DNA from: a virus
Taxonomy: Duplodnaviria > Caudoviricetes
IMG/VR virus record: IMGVR_UViG_3300049009_000811
Coordinates: 1 to 64,000 of that record
DNA length: 64,000 bases
Direction: 5' to 3' (one strand)
A program made the position numbers and the translations under genes. The notes beneath the pieces were generated by a model. It saw only the letters and a program-made list of their open reading frames with translations, ran no database searches and was not told the origin of the DNA. Shown here one piece after another: positions 1,018-49,598 of this stretch (positions are counted from its first letter, which is position 1; each line of letters begins with the position of its first letter).

Positions 1018-1857
1018 ATGGCTATCCGAAAGAAGAAGCTGACCAACGCCGACAACCTCACCGGTGACGTGACCGGTATATGGGGGAACGCGGGGAACAT
1101 CACGGGAGAGTGCGGCATCTCCCTCGGCAAGGTTCTCGACATCCCGACCGGCGACGTGTCCGCGATCACGGGCGACGTTTCCGAGATATACAACGACGTG
1201 AGCAGGATCAGGGGCGACGTGTCCGGGATATGGGGGGACGCGGGTAAGATCAGGGGCGACGTGACGAAGCTCAAGGGGAACGTGTCCGGGCTCAAGGGCG
1301 ACATCAGCAATATCGAGGGCGACGTGTCCCGTGGAGACTATCTCAGGGGCGACGTGACGAAGCTCAGGGGCGACGTGTCCGGGATCAGTGGCGTAGCGAG
1401 CAAGATCGAGGGTGACGTGGGCGGTCTCAGGGGCGACGTGTCCTGGATCAGGGGCGACGTGTCCGGGATCATCGGGCATGTCGGCATCAAGGGTGACGTG
1501 TCCGGTCTATATGGCGACGTGTCCGGGATCCATGGCGACGTCACGAACATCGGTGGCGACGTGTCCGGTCTATATGGCGACGTGACGAAGCTCAGGGGGC
1601 GCGTGAGTCGCCTGTACGGCAACGTGAACGGTCTGACCGGGGAAGTTGGCGACCTGTCCGGATGCGTGGACGACATCACCGGGGACGCGACTTTCATGTG
1701 GGGCGACGTGACGGGTCTCAAGGGCGACCTGACCGAAGCGGTGAAGGAACACGAGAAGATCAGGAATGACGGTCGGAAGATACTGAACGTCGACACGCTG
1801 CTGGGGGAGGGCTTTCTCTACCTGTCCGGCGTGAAGCAGAGGACCATCTGCCGGTAG
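1018..1857 (+). CDS. GDV heptapeptide-repeat protein, paralogue 1
   Basis: Motif A and SD upstream; KKKLTNADNLTGDV cap followed by many GDV[ST]x[IL]x repeats. Confidence 0.85.
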   Translation: MAIRKKKLTNADNLTGDVTGIWGNAGNITGECGISLGKVLDIPTGDVSAITGDVSEIYNDVSRIRGDVSGIWGDAGKIRGDVTKLKGNVSGLKGDISNIEGDVSRGDYLRGDVTKLRGDVSGISGVASKIEGDVGGLRGDVSWIRGDVSGIIGHVGIKGDVSGLYGDVSGIHGDVTNIGGDVSGLYGDVTKLRGRVSRLYGNVNGLTGEVGDLSGCVDDITGDATFMWGDVTGLKGDLTEAVKEHEKIRNDGRKILNVDTLLGEGFLYLSGVKQRTICR

Positions 1858-1918
1858 AGCCGTTCGGACCGGTCCCGGAACCCCATAGCCGTGTGAACGG
1901 TGAACGAGAAGGAGAAAC

Positions 1919-2110
1919 ATGTCTGATTCTGATCTGGACAAGGAACTGCTGGCGAGCATGCTGAGGCACGCGGCGAAGGACATCAGCGACACGATGGGCG
2001 ACGGCGGACCCCTCACCGGCGACCAGGTGGAGGAGGTCGCGCGAATGTTCGTCATACACCTGGCTGACTACAACTGCGAGATGGGGAAGGTGAGGGACAT
2101 ACTGGCTTGA
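1919..2110 (+). CDS. hypothetical protein
   Basis: Motif A, AAGGAG SD; stop TGA abuts next motif A. Confidence 0.75.
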   Translation: MSDSDLDKELLASMLRHAAKDISDTMGDGGPLTGDQVEEVARMFVIHLADYNCEMGKVRDILA

Positions 2111-2165
2111 GCCGTTCGGCTCGGTCACGGAACCCCAAGGTCGTAACCTAACAATGGAGGACGAG

Positions 2166-2447
2166 ATGAGCGACAAGTATTTCGGTGGCGGCGGCAATGG
2201 CTTTTCCGTAACCTACACGGACCTCAAGGTCGAGGGCATGGAGCTTTCGCTCCGGATGTGCTCCGGCGGCGTGAGCGTCACGGCGCGCGAGGGCGGCGAA
2301 GAGAGGACGAGCGAGGTGTTGCCGTGGGGCACGCTGGACGGTCTGCGGGACGCCGGGGGTTACGTCCGCGGGTTCGCGCTCGGGTTCAGCCGGCGGTTCC
2401 GCGCCATGCGAGCCGTTCGGGTCGCGATCGGAACCCTGCATTCGTAA
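2166..2447 (+). CDS. hypothetical protein (C-terminus reads through motif A)
   Basis: GGAGG SD; last codons encoded by the motif A copy at 2412. Confidence 0.7.
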   Translation: MSDKYFGGGGNGFSVTYTDLKVEGMELSLRMCSGGVSVTAREGGEERTSEVLPWGTLDGLRDAGGYVRGFALGFSRRFRAMRAVRVAIGTLHS

Positions 2448-2477
2448 CATTACATCACTTCAAAAAGGAGACTGACG

Positions 2478-2981
2478 ATGGGATACACGCATTACTGGAG
2501 ATTCGACAGGAACGTGTCGGCTTTCCCCGAGAGGAAGAAGGGTTTCGCCCTGGCTGGCGAGACGATACGGAAGGTCATCGCGCTTTCCGGGGTCGGGATA
2601 CACGGCTGGGACGGGCACGGCGATCCGGAGGTGTCGGAGACGCTGATCTCGCTCAACGGGTGCGGCGACACCGGCGAGGACCACGAGTCGTTCGTGGTCG
2701 AGCTCAACGAGAGGGTGTACGAGGACGAGGGGATGCGCAAGTTCCAGAGCCTGCGACCCGGTTTCGGTTTCTGCAAGACGGCGCGGAAGCATTACGACCT
2801 GGTGGTGTGCTGCTCGCTGATAGCGCTGAGCGAGAACATCGAGGGGTTCAAGGTAAGCTCCGACGGCGAGGAAGGCGACTGGTCCGAGGCGTTCGAGTTC
2901 TACGCGGAGAAGGTGAATCCCGAATTCGACTGGAAGGCGTGGACCAGGGAACACATAGGAAGCTGCGCGGAAAGCGATTGA
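2478..2981 (+). CDS. conserved phage hypothetical protein
   Basis: MGYTHYW start and FCKTARKHYD motif; motif A and SD upstream. Confidence 0.8.
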   Translation: MGYTHYWRFDRNVSAFPERKKGFALAGETIRKVIALSGVGIHGWDGHGDPEVSETLISLNGCGDTGEDHESFVVELNERVYEDEGMRKFQSLRPGFGFCKTARKHYDLVVCCSLIALSENIEGFKVSSDGEEGDWSEAFEFYAEKVNPEFDWKAWTREHIGSCAESD

Positions 2982-3076
2982 TTTCATCGGGTCCGGGGCG
3001 AACGGGCATGTCGAGCCGTTCGTTCCGGGTCTGGCACCCTACGGTCGTAACTTAACTTTCAAAAGGAGAACTGGAA

Positions 3077-5431
3077 ATGAAGATTGACAATTTCGGTGGC
3101 GGGGAAATAGGCAGGAGCGACAACCTTGGTGGCGAGACAAGCTTCACCATCGAGAACTCGCCCTTCGCGTTCAAGATACTTTCGGAGTCGCTGTACAGCC
3201 ACAAGATCCAGTCGGTGATCCGGGAATTGAGCACGAACGCGGCTGACGAGCATGTAAGCTCCGGCAAGGGCGACACCCCTTTCGACGTCCACATACCGAC
3301 GGGTTTCGAGCCTTACTTCTCGATCCGCGACTACGGCGCCGGTCTGTCCGAGGCGGACGCGACCACGTTGTACACCACCTTCTTCAAGTCGACGAAGCGA
3401 AACGACAACGCGGTGACGGGATGCCTGGGGCTCGGCTCCAAGTCACCGTTCGCCGTGACCGACAGCTTCACCATCGAGAGTTTCAACGGCGGGTTCAGGA
3501 CGGTCTACACCTGCTTCAAGGACGAGAACTTCTTCCCGAAGCTGGTCGTCCTCGAGAGGGGCGAGAGTTCCGAGCCTACCGGCGTGCGGATACAGTTCCC
3601 CGTGTCCGGATCCCACTGGGACTGGAAGTACGAGGCGGCGCGCGTCTACAAGTTCTTCGCGGTCAAGCCGAACCTCAATTTCGAGATATCCGGCACGGTC
3701 CTCCCCGCCCCGCTCCTCCGCGGCAAGGGATGGGCGATGTACGAGGACATGCACGAGAGTTACGCGGTGATGGGCAACGTAGCCTACCCCATAGACTTCT
3801 CGGCGTTCAAGAGCGACGACGAGCTCCAGAAGGACATCATCGGCGACTTCCGCGGCATGACCGGTTTCGTTTTCGAGTTCCCGCTGGGCGCGGTCAGCTT
3901 CGATCCCTCCAGGGAACGCCTCACCTACAACGTGGCGACCAAGGACGCGATATTCGCCGCCCTGGTGGCGCTCCGCGAGGAGTTCAAGCGGTCCATCGAG
4001 TCTTCGGTCTCCGAGGCGTCCAACCTGTTCGAGGCTCGGATGAAATACGCCAAGGTGACGAACGACCTCCTCAAGCATTTCGACAAGCGTCGGAAGAACG
4101 GCATCGGCTGGATGATCTCCGACATGGTATGCAAGTGGAACGGTCGGGACCTGTTCCCCACGACCTTGGGGCACGTGGTCTCGCTGGCGTCGGTCAGCGG
4201 CGGGGTGATGCACGCCTCGAAGTCCCCGCGTCGCCAGGCGGTCAACATCAACGTGTTCCCCGACATCTCCTTCGACTTCGACCGACCGACCGACATATAC
4301 GTCATCGGCAAGAAGACGAAGAGCGTGCGACGCAGGGCGAGGATGAAGGTCCTCGAGAACAACGATTCCATAATGCTGGTCAACCACGAGGCGGCGGACG
4401 CCGTGGCTCAGGTATTGGGCGCGGACGACGCCAGCGTGTTCAAGTCGGCGGACGACCTTCCCCAGGTGCCGCAGGGCGTTTCCCCCAGTTCCTCGCGGAG
4501 CAGGGTGGTGGCTACCGACCTCGACCGCAGCGGTCGGTCGTTCAACCTGTACGACCTCAACGCGGTCGATAAGGCGCAGCTGTCCGACCTCGAGGGCGAG
4601 GACGCGATGTACGTCATACGGAACAACGACAGCCTCGAGCTGGAGTCGAGCGTCGACTGGGGCTTGCCCGAACTGCAGGGTACGAACTACAGGTACCTCA
4701 CGAAGACCACCTTCCACCAGATGCTGCACATAGCGGACAAGGCTGGTTTCGCCATGCCGAAGACTTTGGTCATACTGAACAGGAGTACAGCCGCTTCGGT
4801 GCGGATCGCCGACAGGGGTTTCCCGAACATCGTGACGGAGGTGATCGAATTCTTCTCCGCGCATCTGAGCGACAAGGGTCTCGCCGAACTGATGGAGGAT
4901 TCCCGCGTGGAGTACTCCTACGTTGACGGCGAAGGCGTCTCCGACTGGGAGGTCAACGATTCGGCTGCCCGCAACATGGACAGGCTTCTGTCGTTGGTCG
5001 GCAAGCTGGAGGTTTCCAACTACCTCACGGGCACCGACGCCGAGCCCAACCCCGCCAGGGAGTTCGCCGATTTCCGGGAACGCGGCACGAAGGAAGAGTC
5101 CACCGTCAGTTCGCGGATCATGGAACTCAACGTCCTCGACGGCGACCTCATGACGAAGAGGAAGCTGTTCCAGACCGCCACCGACCCGCACTGCAAAAAC
5201 GTGGTGGACGACCTGCGCGGCTTGCTCAACCGCAAGGTGGAGACCAACGCCCACCGCAAGTTCGGTTTCGTCGCGGCTAACAAGGACACGGTCACGGCGG
5301 CGCTCAACCACCTGCATTCGGCTGGACTGCTGGAAGGTCTCCATGTCAGGGAGTTGCCGGTCGCCGAGTTCAACATCATCAGCCCTTCGGGGATGATGAC
5401 CGGCGGGAACCCGAATTCCCGTTGGCGGTAA
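3077..5431 (+). CDS. rIIA: rIIA-like protein with N-terminal GHKL/HATPase domain
   Basis: LYSHKIQSVIRELSTNAAD, IRDYGAGLS, GCLGLGSKSPFA, PSRERLTY motifs typical of T4 rIIA; rIIB-like gene nearby. Confidence 0.85.
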   Translation: MKIDNFGGGEIGRSDNLGGETSFTIENSPFAFKILSESLYSHKIQSVIRELSTNAADEHVSSGKGDTPFDVHIPTGFEPYFSIRDYGAGLSEADATTLYTTFFKSTKRNDNAVTGCLGLGSKSPFAVTDSFTIESFNGGFRTVYTCFKDENFFPKLVVLERGESSEPTGVRIQFPVSGSHWDWKYEAARVYKFFAVKPNLNFEISGTVLPAPLLRGKGWAMYEDMHESYAVMGNVAYPIDFSAFKSDDELQKDIIGDFRGMTGFVFEFPLGAVSFDPSRERLTYNVATKDAIFAALVALREEFKRSIESSVSEASNLFEARMKYAKVTNDLLKHFDKRRKNGIGWMISDMVCKWNGRDLFPTTLGHVVSLASVSGGVMHASKSPRRQAVNINVFPDISFDFDRPTDIYVIGKKTKSVRRRARMKVLENNDSIMLVNHEAADAVAQVLGADDASVFKSADDLPQVPQGVSPSSSRSRVVATDLDRSGRSFNLYDLNAVDKAQLSDLEGEDAMYVIRNNDSLELESSVDWGLPELQGTNYRYLTKTTFHQMLHIADKAGFAMPKTLVILNRSTAASVRIADRGFPNIVTEVIEFFSAHLSDKGLAELMEDSRVEYSYVDGEGVSDWEVNDSAARNMDRLLSLVGKLEVSNYLTGTDAEPNPAREFADFRERGTKEESTVSSRIMELNVLDGDLMTKRKLFQTATDPHCKNVVDDLRGLLNRKVETNAHRKFGFVAANKDTVTAALNHLHSAGLLEGLHVRELPVAEFNIISPSGMMTGGNPNSRWR

Positions 5432-6208: not shown

Positions 6209-6290
6209 AATTTCCATGATGTTTGTTTACTTTCCTCATACTTGTAGTATGATGATTTCGGACAAACGAACTTTAACGAAGGAGTATCCT

Positions 6291-7151
6291 ATGAATTGGG
6301 TAATAGACGGATCAGGTTGCGTGAACACCAGCGCTTGCGGGAAAGCATACACTTTCTCGAAGAACCATCCACACTACTCCAGGCTGATCAACTGCCTGAA
6401 GTCGAACAACGTCGAGCATTTCGAGGCTCTGTACGACGTGGGCGCGGCGATAGAGAACTATTGCCAGGGGGCTGTCAGCATCAGCGGGGACCGACTGATG
6501 TGGGACGGCAACCCGATGCCCGAGCTTTTCACCGAGCGGGTCATGGACCTGCGGTCGAGCGGTTCGGACTTCAGCCCGATGATGAACTTCCTCGACAACC
6601 TTTCGGACAACCCGTCCGACAAGTCGATCGTCGAGCTCTTCGATTTCATGCAGCACAAGGAACTGCCGTTGACCCCGGACGGTCACTTCCTCGCCTACAA
6701 GGCTGTTCGTTCCGACTTCCGCGACAAGTACAGCGGCAACTACGACAACAGCGTCGGTAGCGTGGTGGAGGTTTCCCGTGGGGAGGTCAACCCCGACCGC
6801 GACACGCATTGCGGCAGCGGGCTCCATGTGGGCGCCATCGACTACGTCCTCAGCTACGGTTCCGGATTGAGGAAGGACGACGGCGGCAACGTCACGAGGA
6901 ACGACGGCGGCGACCAGGTGGTCGTGTGCAAGGTCAATCCGCGCGACGTGGTCAGCGTTCCCGGCGACGTCCGGTTCCAGAAACTGCGGACCTGCAGGTA
7001 CGAGGTGGTGTCGGTCCTCAAGAAGGTCTACGCGTCTCCAGTGGTGGGTCATAACGGTCCGATCATGGCTTCAAGGTCTGCCAGTCCCGAGCTTGTACGC
7101 AAGATCGGAAGGGTGAGCAAGCTGTTGGCTGGGGTCGGCGCCAGGATCTAG
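6291..7151 (+). CDS. rIIB: rIIB-like protein
   Basis: NFLDNLSDNPS, LPLTPDGHFLAYKAV, CGSGLHVG, VNPRDVVSVP, KLRTCRYEVV motifs; AAGGAG SD before 6291. Confidence 0.85.
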   Translation: MNWVIDGSGCVNTSACGKAYTFSKNHPHYSRLINCLKSNNVEHFEALYDVGAAIENYCQGAVSISGDRLMWDGNPMPELFTERVMDLRSSGSDFSPMMNFLDNLSDNPSDKSIVELFDFMQHKELPLTPDGHFLAYKAVRSDFRDKYSGNYDNSVGSVVEVSRGEVNPDRDTHCGSGLHVGAIDYVLSYGSGLRKDDGGNVTRNDGGDQVVVCKVNPRDVVSVPGDVRFQKLRTCRYEVVSVLKKVYASPVVGHNGPIMASRSASPELVRKIGRVSKLLAGVGARI

Positions 7152-9190: not shown

Positions 9191-9259
9191 ACAGCCGTTC
9201 GTCCGGGGTCTGGCACCCGATGGTCGTAACTTACTTTCAACTCAAAGGGAGAACCGAAG

Positions 9260-10345
9260 ATGGCTACTGGCGAAAAGAAGAAGAAACCGGTCAAGAAGAA
9301 GAAACTGATCAACGCTGGCAACCTCACTGGAGACCTTTCCGGTATCTGGGGCGACGCCAAGCACATCGAGGGCAATGCGTCCAACATCAAGGGCGACGTT
9401 TCCAAACTCTGCTCTTGGGATGAGAATCTCGCCCCGAACACTGATAAAAACCGCATCGAAATGTGTCTAGAAGATCGAGACAACGGACGTAAGAGAGACG
9501 TGTCCGAGCTCAGCGGAGACGTTTCAGAGATCATCGGACTTTTTGCTACCAGCCTCACCGGCGACGTGTCCGGGATCAGTGGGTGTGCGTCCGAACTTAG
9601 GGGCGACGTGTCCGGGATCATCGGCGACCCAATAAACATCTGGGGCGATGTGTCTGGTATCTGGGGCGATGTGTCCGATCTCAGCGGAGATGTGTCCGAT
9701 ATCAGCGGAGATGTGTCCGATATCAGCGGCGACGTGGACGAGATCAGCGGCGACTTGACCGGGATCAGCGGCGACGTGTCCGGTCTCAGCGGCGACGTGG
9801 ACGAGATCACGGGCGACGTGTCCGGTCTCAGCGGCGACGTGGACGAGATCACGGGCGACGTGTCAGGTCTCATGGGCGACGTAACGAACATCAGCGGCGA
9901 CGTGACGAACATCAATGGCGACGTGAACAGCTGCTTGTATGGCGACGCGCGCGGGATCGAGGGTGACGTCACGAACATCAGGGGCGACGTGTCCGGTCTA
10001 GGTGGCGACGTTACGAATCTCAGGGGAGACGTGACCGGGATCGAGGGCTACTTGGATGGTTTCATGGGAGACGTGTCCGGTCTCAGCGGCAACGTTTACG
10101 GTCTTACTGGAGACGTGTCTGGTCTAAAGGGAAAATTGAAACCATTCGATGGCGACGTGTCCGAGGTCAGCGGTTGGAAGCCGGAGCAACTTAAAATTTA
10201 CGTAGCAGAAATGGTCAACCATGGCTGGATGCGTGTCAGTTCGGAGCAAGGCAATCCGGGTGGCACAGGAAAACCAGAGAAGAAGTCCAAGGAGTCTCGC
10301 CTGGTCGAGCTGCTCGAAGAGATCAAGGCGTTGTTCGCCGAGTAG
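9260..10345 (+). CDS. GDV heptapeptide-repeat protein, paralogue 2
   Basis: Lys-rich N-terminus, LINAGNLTGDLSGIWGDAK cap, repeats, tail ESRLVELLEEIKALFAE. Confidence 0.88.
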   Translation: MATGEKKKKPVKKKKLINAGNLTGDLSGIWGDAKHIEGNASNIKGDVSKLCSWDENLAPNTDKNRIEMCLEDRDNGRKRDVSELSGDVSEIIGLFATSLTGDVSGISGCASELRGDVSGIIGDPINIWGDVSGIWGDVSDLSGDVSDISGDVSDISGDVDEISGDLTGISGDVSGLSGDVDEITGDVSGLSGDVDEITGDVSGLMGDVTNISGDVTNINGDVNSCLYGDARGIEGDVTNIRGDVSGLGGDVTNLRGDVTGIEGYLDGFMGDVSGLSGNVYGLTGDVSGLKGKLKPFDGDVSEVSGWKPEQLKIYVAEMVNHGWMRVSSEQGNPGGTGKPEKKSKESRLVELLEEIKALFAE

Positions 10346-10410
10346 CCGTTCGCAACCGGTCTGGCACCCGATGGTCGTAACTTACTTTCAACTCAAAGGG
10401 AGAACCGAAG

Positions 10411-11589
10411 ATGGCTACTGGCGAAAAGAAGAAGAAACCGGTCAAGAAGAAATTGGTCAAGAAGAAGAAACTGATCAACGCTGGCAACCTCACTGGAGAC
10501 CTTTCCAGTATATGGGGCGACGCTGGTAAGCTCAAGGGCAGAACTGGAGTTCTCGCATGCCATTCTGCATGCGCCGATTCAAAAGTGTCCAGAATCAGTG
10601 GCGACGTAACGAACATCAAGGGCGATCCGACAAACATCAGCGGCGATGTCACGAAGATCAGGGGCGACGTTTCTGGCATCAAGGGCGATGTCACGAAGAT
10701 CAAGGGCGACGTTTCTGGCATCAAGGGCGATGTCACGAAGATCAAGGGCGACGTGACTGGCATCAAGGGCAATGTGCGCTGGCTCGGGGGCGATGTAGAA
10801 GACTTGGTTCGTCAAGGCGAGCTGAAGAAAATAAATCATAAGCTAAAAAAGGAACTTTTTAATGTCGGCGAAGAAGGAGAACTTACCGGAGACCTTTCCG
10901 GGATCTGGGGCGACGCCAAGAACATCAGGGGCGACGCTTCCAACATCAGGGGCGACGTGACTGGGATCGAGGGAGACCAGCCTTATCACGGCGAAAAAGC
11001 TTATGTAACGGATCTAAGGGGCGATGTAACGAACATAAGCGGCTTCATCGGAGGCATCACGGGGGATGTCACGAATCTTAGGGGGGATGTGACTGGTATC
11101 TCCACGTTCATGTGGGAAAGAGGCGAAGATTACCATACATGGGGCGAAGCCGACATGTCTGATCTCAGCGGCAATGTGAATGGAATCTATGGAGATGTGA
11201 CATATCAATTTGGTGACACGAATGGAAGCAGCAAATTTTATGGATATAGGGGCGAATGGTCCAATCTCAGCGGCGATGTAGAAGATCTGGTTCGACAAGG
11301 TCGGCTAAACTATTTTTCGAAGCATGAGCTAAAAGAGATGTATAAGATCGGTCGTGTCGCGTCAGCGACTAAGGCTGTCAAGGCGAAGGAAAATCCCGAG
11401 ACAAACCTGGTCGTTGGCAAAGTGTTCACGAATTTCGTTTTGTCTGAGAACTCTACTGGCGCTATGGTCAAAGCTTCTTATCTGGTTTGCCAAGGCAATC
11501 CCGGTGGCACAGGCAAACCAGATAAGAAGTCCAAGGAGTCTCGCCTGGTCGAGCTGCTCGAAGAGATCAAGGCGTTGTTCGCCGAGTAG
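10411..11589 (+). CDS. GDV heptapeptide-repeat protein, paralogue 3 (two repeat domains)
   Basis: Same leader, N- and C-terminus as 9260; two GDVEDLVRQG caps. Confidence 0.88.
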   Translation: MATGEKKKKPVKKKLVKKKKLINAGNLTGDLSSIWGDAGKLKGRTGVLACHSACADSKVSRISGDVTNIKGDPTNISGDVTKIRGDVSGIKGDVTKIKGDVSGIKGDVTKIKGDVTGIKGNVRWLGGDVEDLVRQGELKKINHKLKKELFNVGEEGELTGDLSGIWGDAKNIRGDASNIRGDVTGIEGDQPYHGEKAYVTDLRGDVTNISGFIGGITGDVTNLRGDVTGISTFMWERGEDYHTWGEADMSDLSGNVNGIYGDVTYQFGDTNGSSKFYGYRGEWSNLSGDVEDLVRQGRLNYFSKHELKEMYKIGRVASATKAVKAKENPETNLVVGKVFTNFVLSENSTGAMVKASYLVCQGNPGGTGKPDKKSKESRLVELLEEIKALFAE

Positions 11590-12370: not shown

Positions 12371-12430
12371 AGCCGTTCGTTCGCTTTGTGGCACCCGATG
12401 GCTGTAACTTGACTCTAACCGGAGAATGAT

Positions 12431-13132
12431 ATGAGTGACTTCAGAAAATTGGATTACGCGATGATGCCTGTTGGCGGAGGGCAAATCGTGAACGTGAGCT
12501 ATGCTGTAGACGGGGATTATCTTTACTGCTGCAGCCACGACCAGAGCGACAACACCACCAGCTACAGCCGCGCGCCTCTAGACCTTGATGGGGAAACGGA
12601 ATTCGAGCCGTGGAACAACCAGTTGCCGGACATCGATGGCGAATGGGAAGCGTATGAGCCTAGATTCCGAGTTTGGGATGACGGAAATTCCGAGATCATC
12701 GAGGCTGAAGACATGGAAGCCGCCAAAGAAACGGCTGAGGAAATTTGGCAGGATGGGTCTTGGGATGAAAAATGCCTGATCGATGTGTATATCCAGCAGT
12801 TAGATTTCGATGATGAACCTATAGGGGATATGGAGGAGATTGAGGTGGAGTGCGGAGAGGAGACACCTGAGCCAGATTGCGCTGAAGGTGAAGAGCATGA
12901 ATGGGAATCGCCGCATGAACTGGTGGGTGGACTGGACCAGAATCCCGGCGTTTGGTCAACAGGCGGCACAACCTATGTTACAAAAACAGTGTGCAAAAAC
13001 TGTGGGATCTATCGCACTGAGACCGACTACGGTTCACAACGCAACCCCCAGCAGTGTGATCAGGTTGAGTATGAGGATTCTGACTACGACAGTCTGGAAT
13101 GGGTCGAAAACAACAAGAAAGAAGAGGTTTAA
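12431..13132 (+). CDS. acidic hypothetical protein with CxxC
   Basis: D/E-rich 233 aa; HEW..P, CKNCG. Confidence 0.75.
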   Translation: MSDFRKLDYAMMPVGGGQIVNVSYAVDGDYLYCCSHDQSDNTTSYSRAPLDLDGETEFEPWNNQLPDIDGEWEAYEPRFRVWDDGNSEIIEAEDMEAAKETAEEIWQDGSWDEKCLIDVYIQQLDFDDEPIGDMEEIEVECGEETPEPDCAEGEEHEWESPHELVGGLDQNPGVWSTGGTTYVTKTVCKNCGIYRTETDYGSQRNPQQCDQVEYEDSDYDSLEWVENNKKEEV

Positions 13133-28688: not shown

Positions 28689-29876
28689 ATGTCTACTTGC
28701 GAGAAGAAGCCCAAGAATAAGTGGTCAGTTCCACTGATCAACGCGGGAAGACTTACCGGCGACGTGTCCAACATCTGGGGCGACGCCAAGCACATCGAGG
28801 GCGACGCGTCCAACATCAGCGGTCACGTGTCCGGTCACTGTGACAACATGCACATCAAGGGCGATGTGAGCAAGATCAGGGGCGACGTGTCCGAGATATG
28901 GGAGGACGTGAGCAAGATCAGTGGCGACGTGTCCGGTCTCGAGGGCAACATGACTGGCATCCGCGGAGACGTGTCCGAGCTCAGAGGACAGGTGTCCGGT
29001 CTCTGGGGCGACGTGTCCAACATCTGGGGCAGTTTTTCCGACTTTGTCCAGATTACTGGCGACGTTACGAAGCTCATGGGCGACGTGTCCGGGATCTATG
29101 GCTTTGTGTCAGGTATCAGCGGCGACATGTCGGGGATCGAGGGGTCTGTCGAAGAACTGGTTCGCCAGGGCAAGCTGAAGCGTTGTGGGTTTTGGACGGG
29201 CAATCCAGACCAACCGGAGAAGACCGAGAAGGAACTTTTAAACGCGGGCAACCTCACCGGAGACGTGTCCGGGATCTGGGGCGACGCGAAGAACATCAAG
29301 GGCGAAGTGCGCAGAATGACAGGTGACGTGTCTGGTCTCTATGGCTATGTGTCTGGTCTCAGGGGCGACGTGTCGAACATCTATGGCGACCCGACTGACA
29401 TTAATGACTATGTTACGAAACTCAGGGGCGACGTGTCGAACATCCATGGACAAGCGAATCTTATCTGTGGCGATGTCACGAACATCAGGGGCGACATTTC
29501 CGGTCTCGAGGGCGACGTTTCCGGGATCAGCGGCGACGTTTCCGGGATCGAGGGCTGGAACGTGGTGTACAATGGCTGCAACACCGGTTTCCAGAGCGAC
29601 GTATCCGGTCTCAGGGGCGACGTGACCGGGATCGAGGGCTGCATGAAAGGACTCTCTGGCGATGTCGAAGACCTGGTCCGCCAGGGCAAGCTGAAGCGTA
29701 CAGGCAAGCTGGAGCCGGAACCAGAACCGGAATCGAAGGAAACCAAGCAGTACCTCCATAATCTCAAGCTCAATGCGCCAGACGAGATCAAGGCGCTTAA
29801 GGAGGCTCGCCTGGTCGAGGTCCTCGACGAGATCAAGGTACGTCTCGACGAGATCAAGACGTTGTTCGGCAAGTAG
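28689..29876 (+). CDS. GDV heptapeptide-repeat protein, paralogue 5 (two repeat domains)
   Basis: Two LxNAGxLTGDVS caps, two VE(E/D)LVRQGKLKR caps, tail RLVEVLDEIK..LDEIKTLFGK. Confidence 0.88.
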   Translation: MSTCEKKPKNKWSVPLINAGRLTGDVSNIWGDAKHIEGDASNISGHVSGHCDNMHIKGDVSKIRGDVSEIWEDVSKISGDVSGLEGNMTGIRGDVSELRGQVSGLWGDVSNIWGSFSDFVQITGDVTKLMGDVSGIYGFVSGISGDMSGIEGSVEELVRQGKLKRCGFWTGNPDQPEKTEKELLNAGNLTGDVSGIWGDAKNIKGEVRRMTGDVSGLYGYVSGLRGDVSNIYGDPTDINDYVTKLRGDVSNIHGQANLICGDVTNIRGDISGLEGDVSGISGDVSGIEGWNVVYNGCNTGFQSDVSGLRGDVTGIEGCMKGLSGDVEDLVRQGKLKRTGKLEPEPEPESKETKQYLHNLKLNAPDEIKALKEARLVEVLDEIKVRLDEIKTLFGK

Positions 29877-29973: not shown

Positions 29974-31422
29974 ATGTCAATTTGCGAGAAGAAGAAGGTC
30001 AGATACAATGCCGTGGCGACTTACGTCCTCGAGTCAGACGCCAAGCTCAGCGAAGGGCAGATCGATATAATCAGATGGCGAATGCAGGACGCGCTTGACG
30101 AACTCCAATACCACTCTCGGCGGTATGGCGACGAATTCGACGTGAAAATCGTCAGCGAGAGCGCCGAGATCAGCGAAGCCCCAGACCAACCTAAGGAAAT
30201 CTTGCTGCTGATCAACGCGGACAACCTCACCGGAGACCTTTCCGGTATATGGGGCGACGCCAAGCACATCAAGGGCAACGTAACGAACATCATGAAGGGA
30301 GACGTGTCCGGGATCAAGGGCAACGTGTCCGGTCTCAGGGGCGACGTGTCCGGGATCAGGGGCGACGTGTCCCGTCTCAAGGGCAACGTCTCGAATATCA
30401 GCGGCGACATTTCCGATGGTATCATTTCCGATATCTATGGCGACGTTTCCTGGATCAGTGGTGACGTGTCCAACATCTATGGCGACGCGTGCAACATCAA
30501 GGGCTGCGTCACGCACATCATTGGCATCGTGTCCTCGCTTGATGGAGACGTGTCAGGTATCAGTGGCGTCGTGAGCGGGCGGCTCAGGGGCGACATGACC
30601 GGTATCGAGGGCGACGTGACTGGGCTTGAGGGCGACGTCGAAGAACTGGTTCGCCAGGGCAAGCTAAAGCGTACAGTCAAGCCTGAACCAGAGAAGACCG
30701 AGAAGAAACTTTTAAACGCGGACAACCTCACCGGAGACCTTTCCGGTATATGGGGCGACGCCAAGTACATCGAGGGCAATGCTTCCAACATCAAGGGCGA
30801 CGTTTCCAAACTTTGCTCTTGGGATGAGAATCTCGCCCCGAACGCTGATAAACGCATCAAAATGTGTCTAGAAGATCGAGACAACGGACTCAAGAGAGAC
30901 GTGTCCGAGCTCAGCGGAGACGTGTCCAGGATCATCGGACTTTTTGCTACCAGCCTCACCGGCGACGTGTCCATGATCAGTGGATGTGCGTCCGATATCG
31001 ATGGCGACGCGACTGGACTCATCGGCGACGTCACGAAGCTCGGTGGCGACGTGTCCGAGATCAGGGGCGACGTGTCCGGGATCTATGGCTACATAGAAGG
31101 GATCGAGGGCGACGTGTCCGGAATCAAGGGCAACATAACGAACATCGGCGGCGACGTTTCCGGTCTCACCGGCGATGTTTCCGGTCTCTTCGGCGGTCGA
31201 TATGGGGACATGGCCGATATCGAGGGCGACGTGACCGGGCTTGAAGGCGACGTCGAAGAACTGGTTCGCCAGGGCAAGCTGAAGCGTAAAGGCAAGCTTG
31301 AACCCAAGCCTGAACCCGAGATCAAACCTGAACCGGAGAAGACCAATGAGTCTCGCCTGGTCGAGGTCCTCGACGAGATCAAGGCACGTCTCGACGAGAT
31401 CAAGACTTTGTTCGGCAAGTAG
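29974..31422 (+). CDS. GDV heptapeptide-repeat protein, paralogue 6 (N-terminal insert, two repeat domains)
   Basis: MSICEKKK, ~70 unrelated residues, then two capped repeat domains and the shared tail. Confidence 0.88.
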   Translation: MSICEKKKVRYNAVATYVLESDAKLSEGQIDIIRWRMQDALDELQYHSRRYGDEFDVKIVSESAEISEAPDQPKEILLLINADNLTGDLSGIWGDAKHIKGNVTNIMKGDVSGIKGNVSGLRGDVSGIRGDVSRLKGNVSNISGDISDGIISDIYGDVSWISGDVSNIYGDACNIKGCVTHIIGIVSSLDGDVSGISGVVSGRLRGDMTGIEGDVTGLEGDVEELVRQGKLKRTVKPEPEKTEKKLLNADNLTGDLSGIWGDAKYIEGNASNIKGDVSKLCSWDENLAPNADKRIKMCLEDRDNGLKRDVSELSGDVSRIIGLFATSLTGDVSMISGCASDIDGDATGLIGDVTKLGGDVSEIRGDVSGIYGYIEGIEGDVSGIKGNITNIGGDVSGLTGDVSGLFGGRYGDMADIEGDVTGLEGDVEELVRQGKLKRKGKLEPKPEPEIKPEPEKTNESRLVEVLDEIKARLDEIKTLFGK

Positions 31423-32367: not shown

Positions 32368-32371
32368 TCAG

Positions 32372-33953: not shown

Positions 33954-33957
33954 AGAC

Positions 33958-35514: not shown

Positions 35515-35518
35515 CAGC

Positions 35519-35679: not shown

Positions 35680-35745
35680 TCCGGAGGTCAGTACACCGGT
35701 CACATCCAATAAAAAAAGACCAGGGAATCTCCCTGGTCCTCTCGC

Positions 35746-36273: not shown

Positions 36274-36319
36274 TTTCTTTTCTCCTTTGACAATAGGGTT
36301 CCGCGTGAAGCCCGAACGG

Positions 36320-36718: not shown

Positions 36719-36828
36719 TTCAAGTCTCCTTGTTGTTTCGTTTCCACACGAAGGTGGGGTTCCAGGTAAAACACGAACGGCTTCAAAAGAAAAAGGGCGA
36801 CCGTGTGAAGGTCGCCCAGGTTTCCGGA

Positions 36829-37320: not shown

Positions 37321-37593
37321 TTCTCAATCCCCTTTTTAAAGTTTCCCACCACACGATGATGGGGTTCCAGGTCTTTGGCGAACGGCTCGCCATTAGTCAT
37401 TCGTTTCAAGTCCAAAAAGATTTCTCTTTTTTTTCCTTATTTCGTTTCCCACAATTGTAGGGTGCCAGATCCGGCACGAACGGCTCGCCTGGTCCGGAGG
37501 TCAGTACACCACATTCCCCCAGGTCGGCCGTTCGCCGAAAACCTGGCACCCTACCATCGTGTGGTGGAAACAATAAAACAAGGAGACTGAGAC

Positions 37594-37770
37594 ATGAACG
37601 AAAACCAGATCATCATCGAAGAAGCCCTCAATGCAGCTTGCCTAGCCGTACAAGAACGGATAGGTGTGACGGACGGGGGCTGGGCATCACTGTTCTTCAC
37701 TGGCGAGAATCGCCAGAAATTCGAGGATCTGTTCTCGGCTTACATTCGATCCGAGAAGTCCTCGGACTAG
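37594..37770 (+). CDS. small hypothetical protein (58 aa)
   Basis: Motif A and AAGGAG SD; below ORF-track cutoff. Confidence 0.7.
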   Translation: MNENQIIIEEALNAACLAVQERIGVTDGGWASLFFTGENRQKFEDLFSAYIRSEKSSD

Positions 37771-37919
37771 GGATAAAGCCCCGAAATGGGGCTTTGACTT
37801 TTTACTGGAAACCGGTGTACTGACTTCCAGAGCCAGTAACCTGGACCAGGCGAGCCGTTCGCCCTGAACCTGGAACCCTATCATCGTGTGGCGGGAACAA
37901 TAAAACAAGGAGAATGGAA

Positions 37920-38075
37920 ATGGAAGAGATGAAGCCTAGCGTGGTGCTCATGTGGGTAGCGGCTGAGACTTCGGTCGCAGCCTGCATACTGATGGACGAT
38001 CAGGCATTCGCCAGCAAGCTAAGGAACGGGGCGCAGGTCCAAGAATTGGTAAGCTGGGTAAACGAAAACTACTAG
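37920..38075 (+). CDS. small hypothetical protein (51 aa)
   Basis: Motifs B and A, SD upstream. Confidence 0.65.
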   Translation: MEEMKPSVVLMWVAAETSVAACILMDDQAFASKLRNGAQVQELVSWVNENY

Positions 38076-38229
38076 GGGATATCCCGGGTTTAACGCCCGG
38101 GATTTCTCGATTCCAGGAAACCGGTGTACTGACCTCCGGAGCCAGTAACCTGGACCAGGCGAGCCGTTCGCCCTGAACCCGGAACCCTATCGTCGTGTGG
38201 TGGAAACGAAACAAACAAGGAGAATGAAG

Positions 38230-40825: not shown

Positions 40826-41032
40826 CAAACGCGGCGAAAGCCGCCAGGCGTGGCAACCCCACACACACAATTGCCACGCCAAGGAAACCCAGGTCAATAG
40901 CCTGGGTTTCTTTTTTGCCCGGAACCGGTGTACTGACCTCCGGAGCCAGCCTGTCTCCAGGTTCCAGCCGTTCGCCGACCAGGCGGAACCCAATCATTGT
41001 GGGAAACAACAAACCTTAAAAGGAGAATGAGG

Positions 41033-41926
41033 ATGATCAAGGTAAACAAGATTTTGCGGAACCCGAACATCACCGGCGACAGGTCAAACATCACCGGCGA
41101 TCCGATAAACATCAGGGGCGACATCACGAACATCAGGGGCGACGTAACGAAACTCAGGGGCGACGTAACGAACATCAGCGGCGACGTGACCCTAATCAAC
41201 CGGTGTGGGACCATTTACGGGATCGAGGGCGACGTCTCGGGAATCAGCGGCGACGTGACGAAAATCAAGGGCGACGTCTCGAATATCAGGGGCGACGTGA
41301 CCAAGATCAGTGGAAAGGTGGACGGGGTCAAGCCACACCCTGGGGGCGACAGCCATCAAACACGTCCAGGTCTCATGGGCGACGTGTCCAAGATCAGCGG
41401 CGACATATCCAATCTCTACGGCGACGTGTCCGGCATCTGGGGGAATGTTTCCGGGATCATAGGCGACGTGTCCTATATCAAGGGCGACGTGACCGATTTC
41501 TGCGGTGACGTGAACGGTCAATATCAACGTGTCACTGAGGGAGACATAAAAGACCTGGCGACGAACTATGGAAAGGTTAAAAAACTGATCAATTCCGGCA
41601 ATCTTGTTGGAAAATATCTTGAAATCAATGGCGATGCAAAGAACATCTGGGGCAACGCCTATAGAATCAGCGGCGACGTCTCGAATATCTGTGGTGACAT
41701 CAACAAGATCCATGGCTACGTCTCGGGAATCAGCGGCGACGTAACGAACATCGAGGGCGACGTCTCGAGAATCAGGGGCGACGTCTCGAAGCTCAGCGGC
41801 GACTTGTCCGGGATCAAGGGCGACGTGACCGGGATCGAGGGCGATTTCTCGTTCCTGACGGGAGAACAACGCTCGAAGGGAATCTCGATCTCTATAATCC
41901 TAGACATGTTGGAAAAAGCTGGCTAA
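41033..41926 (+). CDS. GDV heptapeptide-repeat protein, paralogue 7
   Basis: GDV[ST]xIx repeats; internal KKLINSGNL cap. Confidence 0.85.
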   Translation: MIKVNKILRNPNITGDRSNITGDPINIRGDITNIRGDVTKLRGDVTNISGDVTLINRCGTIYGIEGDVSGISGDVTKIKGDVSNIRGDVTKISGKVDGVKPHPGGDSHQTRPGLMGDVSKISGDISNLYGDVSGIWGNVSGIIGDVSYIKGDVTDFCGDVNGQYQRVTEGDIKDLATNYGKVKKLINSGNLVGKYLEINGDAKNIWGNAYRISGDVSNICGDINKIHGYVSGISGDVTNIEGDVSRIRGDVSKLSGDLSGIKGDVTGIEGDFSFLTGEQRSKGISISIILDMLEKAG

Positions 41927-47820: not shown

Positions 47821-48109
47821 CTTTCGATCCCCTTCAAAGTTTAAGTTCCACACCACACAAACATGGGGTTCCAGGTCATCCCCGAACGGCTCAGACTATA
47901 CTAGATCGATCCGCGGCAACAACGCAATACACCTAGCCGACGAAGCCCCGAAACGCCACCTGTTTTCGACGATCACCGGTAAATCGACCTGCCATGCCAT
48001 TCCAGGACATATGGACGAAAACAGGCACATGACCTGGCGAGCCGTTCACGGTCGACCCGGAACCCCATGGTTGTGTGATGGGAAACAAAAAACTTTCAGG
48101 AGATCGAAA

Positions 48110-48271
48110 ATGAAGAATCTTAGCGCGGTAAAGACCTTTGAGCAAAATTGCGAGTGGATTGACGCGGCAGCCGCCGCCCTCGAAAAACTCGAGGCTGCCA
48201 AGCTCGCGGTTATCGCCGCGCAGGCTGCGGCAGAAGCCGCCGAGGCTGAGGTCGAAATACTTTTCAGTTAA
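48110..48271 (+). CDS. small Ala-rich helical protein
   Basis: Motif A and AGGAG SD; terminator follows. Confidence 0.65.
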   Translation: MKNLSAVKTFEQNCEWIDAAAAALEKLEAAKLAVIAAQAAAEAAEAEVEILFS

Positions 48272-48423
48272 GGAAAAGCCTAGGTCCAAGACCTAGGCTT
48301 TTTTCATGCCCGGAAACCGGTGTACTGACCTCCGGACCCAGTGGAACCAGGTTCCAGCCGTTCGCCAAAGACCCGGAACCCCATCATCGTGTGGCAAGCA
48401 ACAAACTTTCAAGGAAATCAAAA

Positions 48424-48585
48424 ATGGCTAAGTTCTTTTTCGGCGCTTCAATCGTGTTGGCGACTTTCTCCTGCGTGGCTGCGAGCCATGCCGAGCCGAA
48501 TATCGGCGTCGGGATAGTGCTGACGACCCTGACCGCCGCCATGGCGTTGATCACGGCACCGGAGGCTCTCGGTCTCGACAAGTAA
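48424..48585 (+). CDS. small 2-TM membrane protein
   Basis: Two hydrophobic stretches; motifs B and A upstream. Confidence 0.65.
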   Translation: MAKFFFGASIVLATFSCVAASHAEPNIGVGIVLTTLTAAMALITAPEALGLDK

Positions 48586-48661
48586 GCCGAGCCGTTCGCC
48601 GAACACCCGGAACCCTATGGTTGTGTGGTGGGAAAAGGAAACAAAAAAAGGAGAATGGAAA

Positions 48662-48865
48662 ATGGAAGAACTGGCAGAAATGATCTACGACCGAAACCAG
48701 GAAACCATCTCGTCATTCTTCGAGGACGAGCGGTACGGAGAGGACGAATTCCTCGATGAATTGGTGGACGACATCGTCTCGGCGATCCAGATCGCCGAGG
48801 GCGAGGAATTCGCCCCCGAGGTCGAGGACCTCATCAGGGAACAAGTCATGAACGGTCTGACCTAG
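48662..48865 (+). CDS. highly acidic small protein
   Basis: FEDERYGEDEFLDELVDDIV; motif A and SD. Confidence 0.7.
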   Translation: MEELAEMIYDRNQETISSFFEDERYGEDEFLDELVDDIVSAIQIAEGEEFAPEVEDLIREQVMNGLT

Positions 48866-49007
48866 GACTCAGCCCAGGCTAAACGCCCGGGCTTTCCCTT
48901 TTCCCGGAAACCGGTGTACTGACCTCCGGAGCCGGACCCCTGGCGAGCCGTTCGTGAACTACCCGGAACCCTACAAACGTAACTCAACCCCAACCGGAGA
49001 ATCGAAG

Positions 49008-49598
49008 ATGTCTACTTGCGAGAAGAAACTGGTAAATGCAGGAAACCTCACCGGAGACCTTTCCGGGATATGGGGCGACGCGGGCAAGCGATATGATTGC
49101 GATATTACCGAACACCTTTCCGGTCTCACGGGCGACGCGACTAATATCAGGGGCGACGTGTCCAAAATCCGTGGCGACGTTACCGGGCTCAGGGGCGACG
49201 TGTCCGGGATCTGGGGATATGTGTCCGCGATCACGGGCGACGTGTCAAATCTCAGTGGCGACGCGTCCTTGTTCAGCCGGTGGGGATACGTGTCCAACCT
49301 CTACGGCGACGTGTCCGGGATCAGGGGATATGTGCACAATCTCAAGGGCGACGTTACCGGGATCAGGGGCGACGTGTCTGGTCTCCGTGGCGATGTCACC
49401 GGTCTCAAGGGCGGTGTGTACGGGCTCCGTGGCGATGTCACTGGGATCGAGGGAAGCGTGTACTGGCTCCGTGGCGACGTCGAAGACCTGGTTCTCCAGG
49501 GAAAGCTGAAGCGTACGGGCAAACATGAACCCGAGAAGACCAAGGAATCTCGACTGGTCGAGAAGCCAGACGATATCAAGACCTTGTTCGGCAAGTAA
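49008..49598 (+). CDS. GDV heptapeptide-repeat protein, paralogue 8
   Basis: MSTCEKKLVNAGNLTGDL cap, GDVEDLVLQGKLKR cap, ESRLVE..DIKTLFGK tail. Confidence 0.88.
   Translation: MSTCEKKLVNAGNLTGDLSGIWGDAGKRYDCDITEHLSGLTGDATNIRGDVSKIRGDVTGLRGDVSGIWGYVSAITGDVSNLSGDASLFSRWGYVSNLYGDVSGIRGYVHNLKGDVTGIRGDVSGLRGDVTGLKGGVYGLRGDVTGIEGSVYWLRGDVEDLVLQGKLKRTGKHEPEKTKESRLVEKPDDIKTLFGK

What the first reader, a model, noticed from the sequence alone, without database searches (positions are those of the whole stretch)
1018..49598. Eight-member family of capped GDV heptapeptide-repeat proteins
Seen: 1018, 9260, 10411, 13135, 28689, 29974, 41033 and 49008 are built from G-D-V-[ST]-x-[IL]-x repeats (21-bp units). 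Most have a Lys-rich start and an N-cap LxNAxNLTGDLSGIWGDAK; four have a C-cap GDVExLVxQGxL and five end in an amphipathic RLVE..(E/D)IKxLF tail. Several have two capped domains. The x positions and inserted loops vary widely. Inference: Gly richness and caps suggest a beta-solenoid with a variable surface, though the 3-4 hydrophobic spacing also fits a coiled coil. No signal peptide and placement in motif A units suggest cytoplasmic early binders, possibly of defence proteins. I know no described family with this architecture.
Basis: partly seen in the sequence, partly recalled or inferred. Interest (0 to 1): 0.8.

Follow-up and report, generated by a model that had tools for sequence, protein, structure and literature searches.

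The report
Eight glycine-heptad repeat phage proteins
A very large uncultivated phage carries eight early-region genes built from seven-residue Gly-Asp-Val-Ser-x-Ile-x units; they belong to a big, unnamed, mostly viral protein family whose shape (probably a thin beta-solenoid rod) and job are still unknown.

Summary
There are exactly eight + strand genes made of G-D-V-[ST]-x-[IL]-x heptads: 240 in-phase units, with Gly at position 1 in 98%. The N-caps, C-caps and RLVE..IKxLF tails are as described.

They are not unique to this genome. They form a sub-branch of a large family found in many IMG/VR phage contigs and in some bacteria. The Pfam, PHROG, NCBIfam and PADLOC copies searched hold no model of it, and the PDB no solved relative. 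This scan has met the family before on other DNA, in CPR bacteria and other phages.

The fold is not settled:
- **For a narrow beta-solenoid (about 60-65%):** AlphaFold2 and ESMFold both give beta models. Positions 1 and 5 take turn-type residues (G/N/D), Pro occurs at position 3, and one-residue indels fall at positions 4-5. Ala is 1-5%.
- **For a trimeric coiled coil (about 25%):** all library and PDB sequence hits are Lpp, P22 gp26 or cavin-type coiled coils. One hit of the profile search carries G-heptads in phase with ordinary coiled-coil heptads.

Context points to cytoplasmic early proteins. Seven genes have their own motif A copy, rIIA/rIIB and a ligase lie nearby, and small-phage relatives sit beside ERF/YqaJ or SSB genes. 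Repeat number changes fast. Function is untested; binding or counter-defence is only an inference.

The parts
1018..1857 (+). P0001, 279 aa, one repeat domain with N-cap (1039-1068); no C-cap, no tail
   Evidence: motif A at 951-974
9260..10345 (+). P0002, 361 aa, Lys-rich start, N-cap, about 33 heptads, a 27-aa Cys-containing loop, tail at 10298-10336; most acidic member (net -32)
   Evidence: motif A at 9194-9217
10411..11589 (+). P0003, 392 aa, two capped domains (C-caps at 10789-10824 and 11272-11307), tail at 11542-11580
   Evidence: motif A at 10345-10368; its last 99 nt are 97% identical to those of P0002
13135..13890 (+). P0004, 251 aa, N-cap, about 30 heptads, degenerate C-cap GKVKKLVKNGWL; second gene of a two-gene cassette
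   Evidence: nearest upstream motif A is at 12372-12395, before the ORF 12431-13132
28689..29876 (+). P0005, 395 aa, two capped domains (C-caps at 29142-29177 and 29658-29693), tail at 29808-29867
   Evidence: motif A at 28627-28650; hairpin terminator after the stop
29974..31422 (+). P0006, 482 aa, extra 75-aa N-terminal domain, two capped domains (C-caps at 30631-30666 and 31246-31281), tail at 31354-31413
   Evidence: motif A at 29913-29936; its orthologue P0009 in a closely related phage contig lacks about 520 nt of repeats
41033..41926 (+). P0007, 297 aa, two domains. The second ends in FSFLTGEQRSKGISISIILDML, a variant of the family's common C-cap
   Evidence: motif A at 40967-40990
49008..49598 (+). 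P0008, 196 aa, the shortest complete member: N-cap (49029-49058), 18 heptads, C-cap (49473-49508), shortened tail (49551-49589)
   Evidence: motif A at 48947-48970; AlphaFold2 model

Best explanation
The eight genes are real, separately transcribed, cytoplasmic paralogues from the early-gene array of a very large phage. They belong to a big unnamed family of glycine-marked heptapeptide-repeat proteins.

**Fold (inferred).** Each heptad most likely forms one short beta-strand (I6-x7-G1-D2-V3) followed by a two-residue turn (S/T4-x5). The units stack into a thin beta-solenoid rod. I6, G1 and V3 face inward. D2, x7, the turn residue x5 and the inserted loops form the surface. Both ends are closed by an L-[IV]-x-x-G-x-L element.

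**Evolution (shown).** Rod length and surface change quickly through in-frame gain and loss of heptads and through exchange between paralogues.

**Function (inferred only).** The rods serve as adjustable binding or scaffold modules during early infection, in host take-over or counter-defence. The shared C-terminal amphipathic helix would act as a common oligomerisation or docking handle.

Shown here: the genes, their architecture, their context and the spread of the family. Inferred: the fold. The function is not tested at all.
For: **Genes and expression context**
-.
- The genes share the array with rIIA, rIIB, a ligase and a clamp-loader-like gene.

**Beta fold**
- The AF2 model of P0008 is all-beta, with strands on I-x-G-D-V and turns on S-x.
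- Its best solved match is the Ag43 beta-helix (Z 12.0, rmsd 2.9 A over 150 residues).
- In a 228-aa bacterial relative with 44 constant-length orthologues, the heptads next to the same type of C-cap are strands in the same register, with block-mean pLDDT of 86-95.
- The nearest named folds to ESMFold's own model of a typical family member are pentapeptide-repeat and right-handed beta-helix proteins (TM 0.47-0.49).
- Position 5 is G, N or D in 66% of heptads and position 1 is G in 98%.
- Pro sits at position 3 in five heptads.
- All five +1 indels and the one -1 indel lie between positions 3 and 6. Units of 13 or 15 residues do not occur.
- Ala is 1-5% and Gly 14-19%.
- The helix penalty is 0.56-0.65 kcal/mol per residue, against 0.46-0.51 for heptads that are probably helical.

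**Fast length change**
- The P0006 orthologue in a contig 86-97% identical in DNA lacks about 520 nt of repeats.

**Non-structural context of relatives**
- One relative lies beside ERF and YqaJ, another beside SSB.
Against: - The P0008 model has low confidence (pLDDT 54.9).
- AF2 is known to over-predict beta-solenoids for repeat sequences (PMC11795689, found).
- Every library and PDB sequence hit to the eight window proteins is to a coiled coil: Lpp above Pfam's cut-off in four members, P22 gp26 at 4.6e-8, SlaB, and cavin-1 HR1, which has Gly at position 1 in several of its heptads.
- In P0157, a hit of the profile search, GDIAGMK heptads run in phase with ordinary coiled-coil heptads.
- Some family members have only about five heptads, too few for a stable monomeric solenoid.
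- The coil size is unclear. AF2 gives a three-sided coil of 21 residues. Sequence periodicity and duplication units hint at 14 residues.
- No result bears on function.
Confidence: 0.45

Rival explanations
1. The repeats form a three-stranded alpha-helical coiled-coil rod of the Lpp or P22 tail-needle type. V3 and I6 would be the a and d core positions, D2 and x7 the g and e salt-bridge positions, and Gly the outermost f position. The caps and the tail would set the register of the trimer.
For: - Hydrophobic spacing is 3-4, with beta-branched residues at both core positions.
- Lpp, DUF1664 and other coiled-coil models hit the proteins.
- phrog_19577 and phrog_1219 hit them.
- PDB profile hits are to P22 gp26, SlaB, cavin-1 and reovirus sigma-1.
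- In P0157, G-heptads run in phase with classical coiled-coil heptads.
- Very short members of about five heptads exist.
- The tail itself is a clear amphipathic helix of about three heptads.
Against: - About 1.4 Gly per heptad on average, with position 5 being G, N or D in 66%.
- Pro occurs at the would-be a position in five units.
- Ala is only 1-5%.
- One-residue indels are frequent.
- Neither AF2 nor ESMFold gives a helix for the repeats.
- The helix penalty is higher than in the probably helical heptads compared.
Confidence: 0.25
2. The repeats form a trimeric, triple-stranded beta-helix like the T4 gp5 needle, but with 7-residue instead of 8-residue strands. Locally this is the same strand-turn unit as in the best explanation, but three chains interleave. 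The C-terminal helix would act as the trimerisation seed.
For: - It uses the same strand and turn assignment.
- It would explain how members with only five heptads can be stable.
- It would explain why the monomer models have low confidence away from the caps.
- An earlier follow-up of this scan raised the same idea.
Against: - The window proteins gave no match to a gp5 C-terminal model at E up to 1.
- Three of the eight proteins lack the tail.
- The caps look like the end caps of a single-chain solenoid.
Confidence: 0.12
3. Whatever the exact fold, the acidic rods act as nucleic-acid mimics. They would block host nucleases or restriction enzymes early in infection, in the way Ocr, ArdA, Gam or the pentapeptide-repeat protein MfpA do.
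For: - Repeat regions are acidic in 11 of 12 domains (pI 4.05-5.7, down to -14 net charge per 100 aa).
- An Asp sits in most heptads.
- Relatives lie beside recombination and SSB genes.
- There is a weak Foldseek likeness to QnrB1 and MfpA (E 0.014, TM 0.31).
Against: - The charge density is well below what I recall for Ocr or ArdA.
- One domain, and several small relatives, are neutral or basic.
- The Foldseek match is not significant.
- No assay has been done.
Confidence: 0.12
4. They are virion-associated proteins, either fibres or injected internal proteins, and not cytoplasmic early proteins.
For: - phrog_19577 is labelled 'minor head protein' (4e-21) and phrog_1219 is the tail needle.
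- The shared MSTCEKK-type N-terminus could be a targeting signal.
Against: - The PHROG matches cover only the heptad part of the profiles.
- The Bacillus phage protein behind phrog_19577 sits among baseplate genes, has its own end domains and lacks Gly at position 1.
- The window genes lie in the rII/ligase array.
- Relatives in small phages lie in replication or recombination modules.
Confidence: 0.08

Closest known systems
Trimeric coiled-coil rods: Braun's lipoprotein Lpp (PF04728, 1EQ7), P22 tail needle gp26 (2POH, 4LIN), cavin-1 HR1 (4QKV)
   Same: Heptad x-D/N-V-S/T-x-L/I-x with hydrophobic residues at positions 3 and 6. Some heptads of gp26 and cavin-1 carry Gly at position 1. These are the best sequence hits.
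   Different: The window proteins have Gly in 98% of heptads at position 1 and G/N/D in 66% at position 5. They have Pro at position 3, almost no Ala, no lipobox, no gp26 end domains, and beta rather than helical predictions.
Pentapeptide-repeat proteins (MfpA, QnrB1, AlbG)
   Same: Short-period repeats predicted to stack into a right-handed solenoid. Acidic surface and cytoplasmic location. These are the top Foldseek rows and the nearest named fold to an ESMFold model.
   Different: The period is 7, not 5, so the cross-section would differ. The matches are weak (E 0.014, TM 0.31). No Pentapeptide model hit.
Seven-residue half-coil beta-rolls: Lolium perenne ice-binding protein (3ULT, PF21300) and the YadA-type head
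   Same: A Gly, a small polar residue three positions later and a beta-branched hydrophobic residue two after that, in the same spacing as G1, S/T4 and I6. Pfam LbR_Ice_bind hits two relatives weakly. Relatives show an even-lag periodicity and two-heptad duplication units that would suit a 14-residue coil.
   Different: The hits fall below the cut-off (about 21 bits against 30) and none is in the window proteins. The AF2 model superposes poorly on 3ULT (rmsd 8.8 A) and on 1P9H (rmsd 8.6 A). Position 3 is hydrophobic here; as I recall the grass protein's sequence, it is polar there.
Autotransporter passenger beta-helix (Ag43, 7KOB)
   Same: Best structural match of the P0008 model: Z 12.0, rmsd 2.9 A over 150 residues.
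   Different: No sequence relation, and the model has low confidence. Ag43 is secreted and, from memory, has coils of about 19 residues. This says only that the model is a three-sided right-handed solenoid.
T4 gp5 C-terminal triple-stranded beta-helix
   Same: A short Val/Gly-marked repeat forming one strand per unit in a phage protein. It would explain very short family members.
   Different: The gp5 repeat has eight residues and is a virion needle. No model hit. Trimer state could not be tested here.

Membership tests
Lpp, lipoprotein leucine zipper (PF04728) | Pfam score above the gathering cut-off | tested here: met
   P0002 55.0, P0001 34.1, P0007 33.5 and P0004 30.1 bits against 29.1. 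The matches are short and driven by the repeat period.
Lpp, lipoprotein leucine zipper (PF04728) | Signal peptide with a lipobox Cys, and a small mature protein of about 56 aa | tested here: not met
   The N-termini are Lys-rich with no hydrophobic stretch (maximum KD12 0.78 in the first 36 aa). The proteins are 196-482 aa.
Lpp, lipoprotein leucine zipper (PF04728) | Alpha-helical trimer | tested here: inconclusive
   The monomer predictions are beta.
phrog_19577, 'minor head protein' of Bacillus Nitunavirus phages | Match along the whole profile, including the N-terminal part and the C-terminal globular domain | tested here: not met
   Only profile positions about 50-194 of 378 match. The Grass protein has end domains that are absent here.
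phrog_19577, 'minor head protein' of Bacillus Nitunavirus phages | Gene lies in the structural (baseplate/tail) module | tested here: not met
   The Grass gene lies between baseplate and tail-associated genes. The window genes lie in the rII/ligase array.
P22-type tail needle gp26 (phrog_1219; 2POH, 4LIN) | N-terminal docking domain, central coiled coil, beta-helix and inverted coiled coil in one protein of about 233 aa | tested here: not met
   Only the coiled-coil part of the profile, about positions 75-161 of 233, is matched.
Pentapeptide-repeat proteins (PF00805) | Five-residue period A-[DN]-L-x-x | tested here: not met
   The period is 7: 185 of the unit spacings are exactly 7. No Pentapeptide hit at E up to 1.
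Pentapeptide-repeat proteins (PF00805) | Right-handed four-sided beta-helix | tested here: inconclusive
   Foldseek to QnrB1 gives E 0.014 and TM 0.31 on a low-confidence model. An ESMFold model of a relative gives TM 0.47.
Grass antifreeze beta-roll (PF21300, 3ULT) | Pfam match above the cut-off | tested here: not met
   No hit in the window proteins. Two relatives reach 20.6-21.7 bits against a cut-off of 30.
Grass antifreeze beta-roll (PF21300, 3ULT) | Two-sided roll with coils of 14-15 residues | tested here: inconclusive
   For: even-lag periodicity in relatives and duplication in two-heptad units. Against: the AF2 model is three-sided and fits 3ULT at rmsd 8.8 A.
Unnamed viral glycine-heptad family (typical small phage proteins) | Runs of G-[DN]-[VIC]-[ST]-x-[IL]-x heptads | tested here: met
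   for the window; for relatives.
Unnamed viral glycine-heptad family (typical small phage proteins) | The family's common N-cap (aromatic-rich hairpin, then G-x-H-x-x-I-x-G) and common C-cap C-E-I-T-x-E-D-R-x-x-G-I-x-I-x-D-L-I | tested here: not met
   The window proteins use their own caps, LINAGNLTGD and GDVEDLVRQGKL. Only the second domain of P0007 ends in a variant of the common C-cap.
Window-type sub-branch (caps L-[IV]-x-x-G-x-L) | N-cap L-[IV]-N-x-x-N-[LI]-x-G-D-x-S-x-I-[WY]-G-D-A-K, with or without C-cap G-x-[VI]-x-[ED]-L-[LVI]-x-x-G-x-L | tested here: met
   Shared with P0009, P0010, P0064, P0073, P0109, P0131, P0149, P0214 and P0222, and with loci L003 and L004. The C-cap type also occurs in the 228-aa bacterial family.
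T4 gp5 C-terminal beta-helix | Eight-residue V-x-G repeat | tested here: not met
   The period is 7. No such model among Pfam hits at E up to 1.
T4 gp5 C-terminal beta-helix | Three interleaved chains | not testable with these tools

The most novel reading that the evidence does not exclude
The glycine-marked heptapeptide repeat is a new class of beta-solenoid, with one strand and one tight turn per seven residues. Phages would use it as a length-adjustable, surface-programmable binder, comparable in role to ankyrin, LRR or pentapeptide repeats. This huge phage would deploy eight versions early in infection to neutralise different host factors or defence proteins.
Probability: 0.2. Interest if true: 0.8.

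Novelty: new variant of a known kind. Interest (0 to 1): 0.55.

Why it matters
Many phages and some bacteria encode this repeat, yet the family libraries searched here hold no model of it. No structure of it has been solved, and no paper in the text library quotes its sequence.

If the beta reading is right, it adds a seventh-residue class to the short-period solenoids, which so far are built on penta- and hexapeptide repeats. That would give a natural scaffold whose length and surface change easily.

If the proteins prove to be early binders of host factors, an eight-member set in one phage would be a ready-made panel for finding their targets. If instead they are Gly-rich trimeric coiled coils, they would test the limits of what sequence a coiled coil can tolerate.

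Either way, one purified protein and a CD spectrum would settle a question that several follow-ups of this scan have left open.

Tried and rejected
- **Foldseek against the PDB:** nothing at E 0.001 or better.
- **BFVD:** only two unrelated rows below 0.001.
- **PADLOC:** nothing meaningful.
- **NCBIfam:** a hit to the RiPP precursor TigB reached up to 36.5 bits against a cut-off of 70. I read this as repeat composition and did not pursue it. Neighbours were not screened for radical-SAM enzymes.
- **tblastn against 50,697 deposited phage genomes:** only one uncultivated podovirus carries a true relative. The hit in Synechococcus phage S-RIM2 is a four-residue GNVT repeat, not this family.
- **A 21-residue super-period, which would back the three-sided model:** not found.
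- **The family-size figure from the profile search** (10,636 clusters at E up to 0.001) is inflated. Many of the top hits are ordinary coiled coils. Only about 37 of 128 top representatives have eight or more consecutive Gly-marked heptads.
- **Literature:** searches for the repeat strings and for heptapeptide beta-solenoids in phages found nothing relevant.
- **A selection test on the variable positions** was not attempted. The one close orthologue differs mainly by whole-heptad indels.

Full report
**What is there.** The window is the first 64 kb of a 115.7-kb IMG/VR virus record that CheckV rates at 24% complete, so it comes from a very large phage. Translating the eight named ORFs shows the repeat directly. 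A six-frame scan places 166 of 187 loose pattern matches in one frame of these eight genes, with no other cluster. A search of the whole record finds no ninth copy.

Over 240 in-phase heptads the composition is as follows:

| Position | Main residues | Note |
|---|---|---|
| 1 | G 98% | |
| 2 | D 71% | |
| 3 | V 69% | Pro in five units |
| 4 | S/T 73% | |
| 5 | G, N, K, D | G/N/D together 66%; 2.85 bits |
| 6 | I/L 93% | |
| 7 | almost free | 3.63 bits |

I add one point. The N-cap (LINAGNL) and the C-cap (LVRQGKL) share one motif, L-[IV]-x-x-G-x-L, so each repeat domain is flanked by the same element on both sides. In P0007 the end of domain 1 and the start of domain 2 overlap in one such element. 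Synonymous codons differ among units, so the repeat is kept by selection on the protein. There is no signal peptide or membrane helix.

**Context.** A fixed element, GCCGTTC-N(10-14)-GG[AC]ACC, occurs 64 times in the window against 0.01 expected. Seven of the eight genes have their own copy 60-70 nt upstream plus a Shine-Dalgarno. P0004 is the second gene of a two-gene cassette. Hairpin terminators follow three of the genes, P0005, P0006 and P0007. The same array holds rIIA, rIIB, a DNA ligase and a clamp-loader-like gene. This is the make-up of an early region in T4-like phages (my own knowledge).

**Relatives.**
- A word-indexed search found P0009, which has the same caps and tail, along with many metagenomic proteins carrying the repeat. 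Some of these are fused to trypsin-like proteases or kinases.
- A scan of IMG/VR returned 25 loci. Most encode small proteins of 82-306 aa that share a common N-cap and the common C-cap C-E-I-T-x-E-D-R-x-x-G-I-x-I-x-D-L-I, with between about 5 and about 40 heptads.
- In a 43.8-kb phage contig the gene sits next to ERF and YqaJ. In a 40.5-kb podovirus genome it sits just after an SSB gene.
- The ESM Atlas holds several clusters of 50-130 members, mostly viral and carrying only automatic names.
- A 228-aa family encoded among housekeeping genes of bacteria combines the common N-cap, about ten heptads, a window-type C-cap and a globular C-terminal domain.
- A contig 86-97% identical in DNA to window 29.9-38.1 kb carries the orthologue of P0006 with about 520 nt of repeats missing. 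Paralogues in the window share exchanged segments. Repeat number and content therefore turn over quickly.

No Pfam, PHROG, NCBIfam or PADLOC model covers the caps or names the family. No paper in the text library quotes the repeat. Earlier entries of this scan describe the same family in CPR bacteria and other phages, with the fold left open.

**Fold: evidence for beta.**
- AlphaFold2 on P0008 with the paralogue alignment gives an all-beta model of low confidence (pLDDT 54.9). Strands fall on I6-x7-G1-D2-V3, turns on S4-x5, and a short helix sits on the C-cap.
- The model's best solved match is the three-sided right-handed Ag43 beta-helix (Z 12.0, rmsd 2.9 A over 150 residues). Left-handed hexapeptide helices fit at about 10 A.
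- For the 228-aa bacterial family (44 orthologues of constant length), the four heptads next to the C-cap are strands in the same register. Block-mean pLDDT across them is 86-95. The heptads nearer the N-terminus stay below 50.
- The nearest named folds to ESMFold's own model of a typical family member are pentapeptide-repeat and right-handed beta-helix proteins (TM 0.47-0.49).
- Independent of any predictor:
  - the near-invariant Gly at position 1 and the G/N/D preference at position 5 are what positions with turn-type backbone angles need, and a helix surface position has no such need (established residue propensities);
  - Pro occurs at the would-be core position 3;
  - all six one-residue indels fall between positions 3 and 6, and no 13- or 15-residue units occur;
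  - Ala is 1-5%;
  - the mean helix penalty is 0.56-0.65 kcal/mol per residue, against 0.46-0.51 for heptads that are probably helical.

**Fold: evidence for a coiled coil.**
- AF2 is documented to produce unrealistic beta-solenoids for repeats (PMC11795689).
- All sequence-level hits to the eight window proteins are to coiled coils, four of them above Pfam's Lpp cut-off.
- A profile search of the PDB gives P22 gp26 (4.6e-8), SlaB and cavin-1 HR1. Gly occupies position 1 of several heptads in the cavin-1 sequence.
- P0157, a hit of the profile search, has GDIAGMK units running in phase with classical coiled-coil heptads.
- Family members with about five heptads are too short for a lone solenoid. 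That argues for an oligomer, either a coiled coil or a triple beta-helix.
- The trimer test could not be run.

**Coil size.** This is also open. The AF2 model has three heptads per coil. Against that, 2,398 heptads of relatives show even-lag periodicity at positions 2, 4 and 6, and near-identical DNA units lie mostly two heptads apart (11 pairs, against 2-3 at other lags).

**My odds on the fold.**

| Reading | Odds |
|---|---|
| beta-type fold, all forms together (single-chain solenoid is my lead reading; a triple-stranded beta-helix takes about 12 points of this) | about 60-65% |
| alpha-helical trimer | about 25% |
| other | the rest |

**Function.** Nothing here tests it. Three things fit proteins that bind varied partners early in infection: the early, non-structural context; the paralogue expansion; the variable surface positions and loops with fast length change.

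Repeat regions are acidic in 11 of 12 domains, which allows a nucleic-acid-mimic reading. But the charge density is modest, and some relatives are neutral or basic.

The label 'minor head protein' on phrog_19577 does not transfer. The Bacillus phage protein behind it is a fibre-like protein in the baseplate cluster, with its own end domains and no Gly at position 1.

**Verdict.** The family is real, widespread and undescribed in the libraries and papers searched, but it is not unique to this genome and is not new to this scan. Fold and function remain to be shown by simple experiments.

Noticed in passing
window 951-52010, both strands: The element GCCGTTC-N(10-14)-GG[AC]ACC occurs 64 times against 0.01 expected. 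It usually lies 60-70 nt before a start codon and often directly after the previous stop or a hairpin. This is the 'motif A' of other findings on this stretch.
   Followed up: partly
window 3077-5431, 6216-7151, 15076-16152, 23038-24078: rIIA, rIIB, a clamp-loader-like gene and an ATP-dependent DNA ligase lie in the same + strand array.
   Followed up: partly
L030 (ENA contig, 10,242 bp) against window 29912-38121: A closely related phage contig, 86-97% identical in DNA, with the same gene order. Its copy of P0006 (P0009, 304 aa) lacks about 520 nt of repeats.
   Followed up: partly
P0086 family (228 aa; alignment A3): A conserved bacterial chromosomal protein joins the heptad module to a C-terminal domain. 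The AF2 model of that domain weakly resembles ADP-ribosyltransferase-type folds such as Arr, Tpt1 and PARP (Z 4.5-5.8). Its top match is a Bacillus cereus protein of unknown function (Z 6.6). Neighbouring genes are housekeeping.
   Followed up: partly
window 29974-30198 (P0006 residues 1-75): An extra N-terminal domain of about 75 aa precedes the first cap. It is also found in P0009, P0073, P0149 and P0222, and has no family match.
   Followed up: no
window about 9398-9600 and 30820-31020: P0002 and the second domain of P0006 share the same Cys-containing loop (KLCSWDENLAP...) and the heptads after it. This suggests common origin or exchange between paralogues 20 kb apart.
   Followed up: no
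L028:7523-7912 and L030:6014-6702: Genes of Pfam family PF27050 (Phage_P22_Y8K6) lie near the heptad gene in two unrelated phage contigs. This may be chance.
   Followed up: no
P0157 (401 aa, metagenomic): GDIAGMK heptads, with Gly at positions 1 and 5, continue in the same phase as ordinary Ala/Glu/Lys-rich coiled-coil heptads. This is a useful test case for whether Gly-marked heptads can be helical.
   Followed up: no
L032:4500-6098 (Synechococcus phage S-RIM2 structural protein): Long runs of a four-residue G-[ND]-[VL]-T repeat in a 1,912-aa protein annotated 'structural protein', encoded next to the neck genes. This is a different repeat from the heptads.
   Followed up: no
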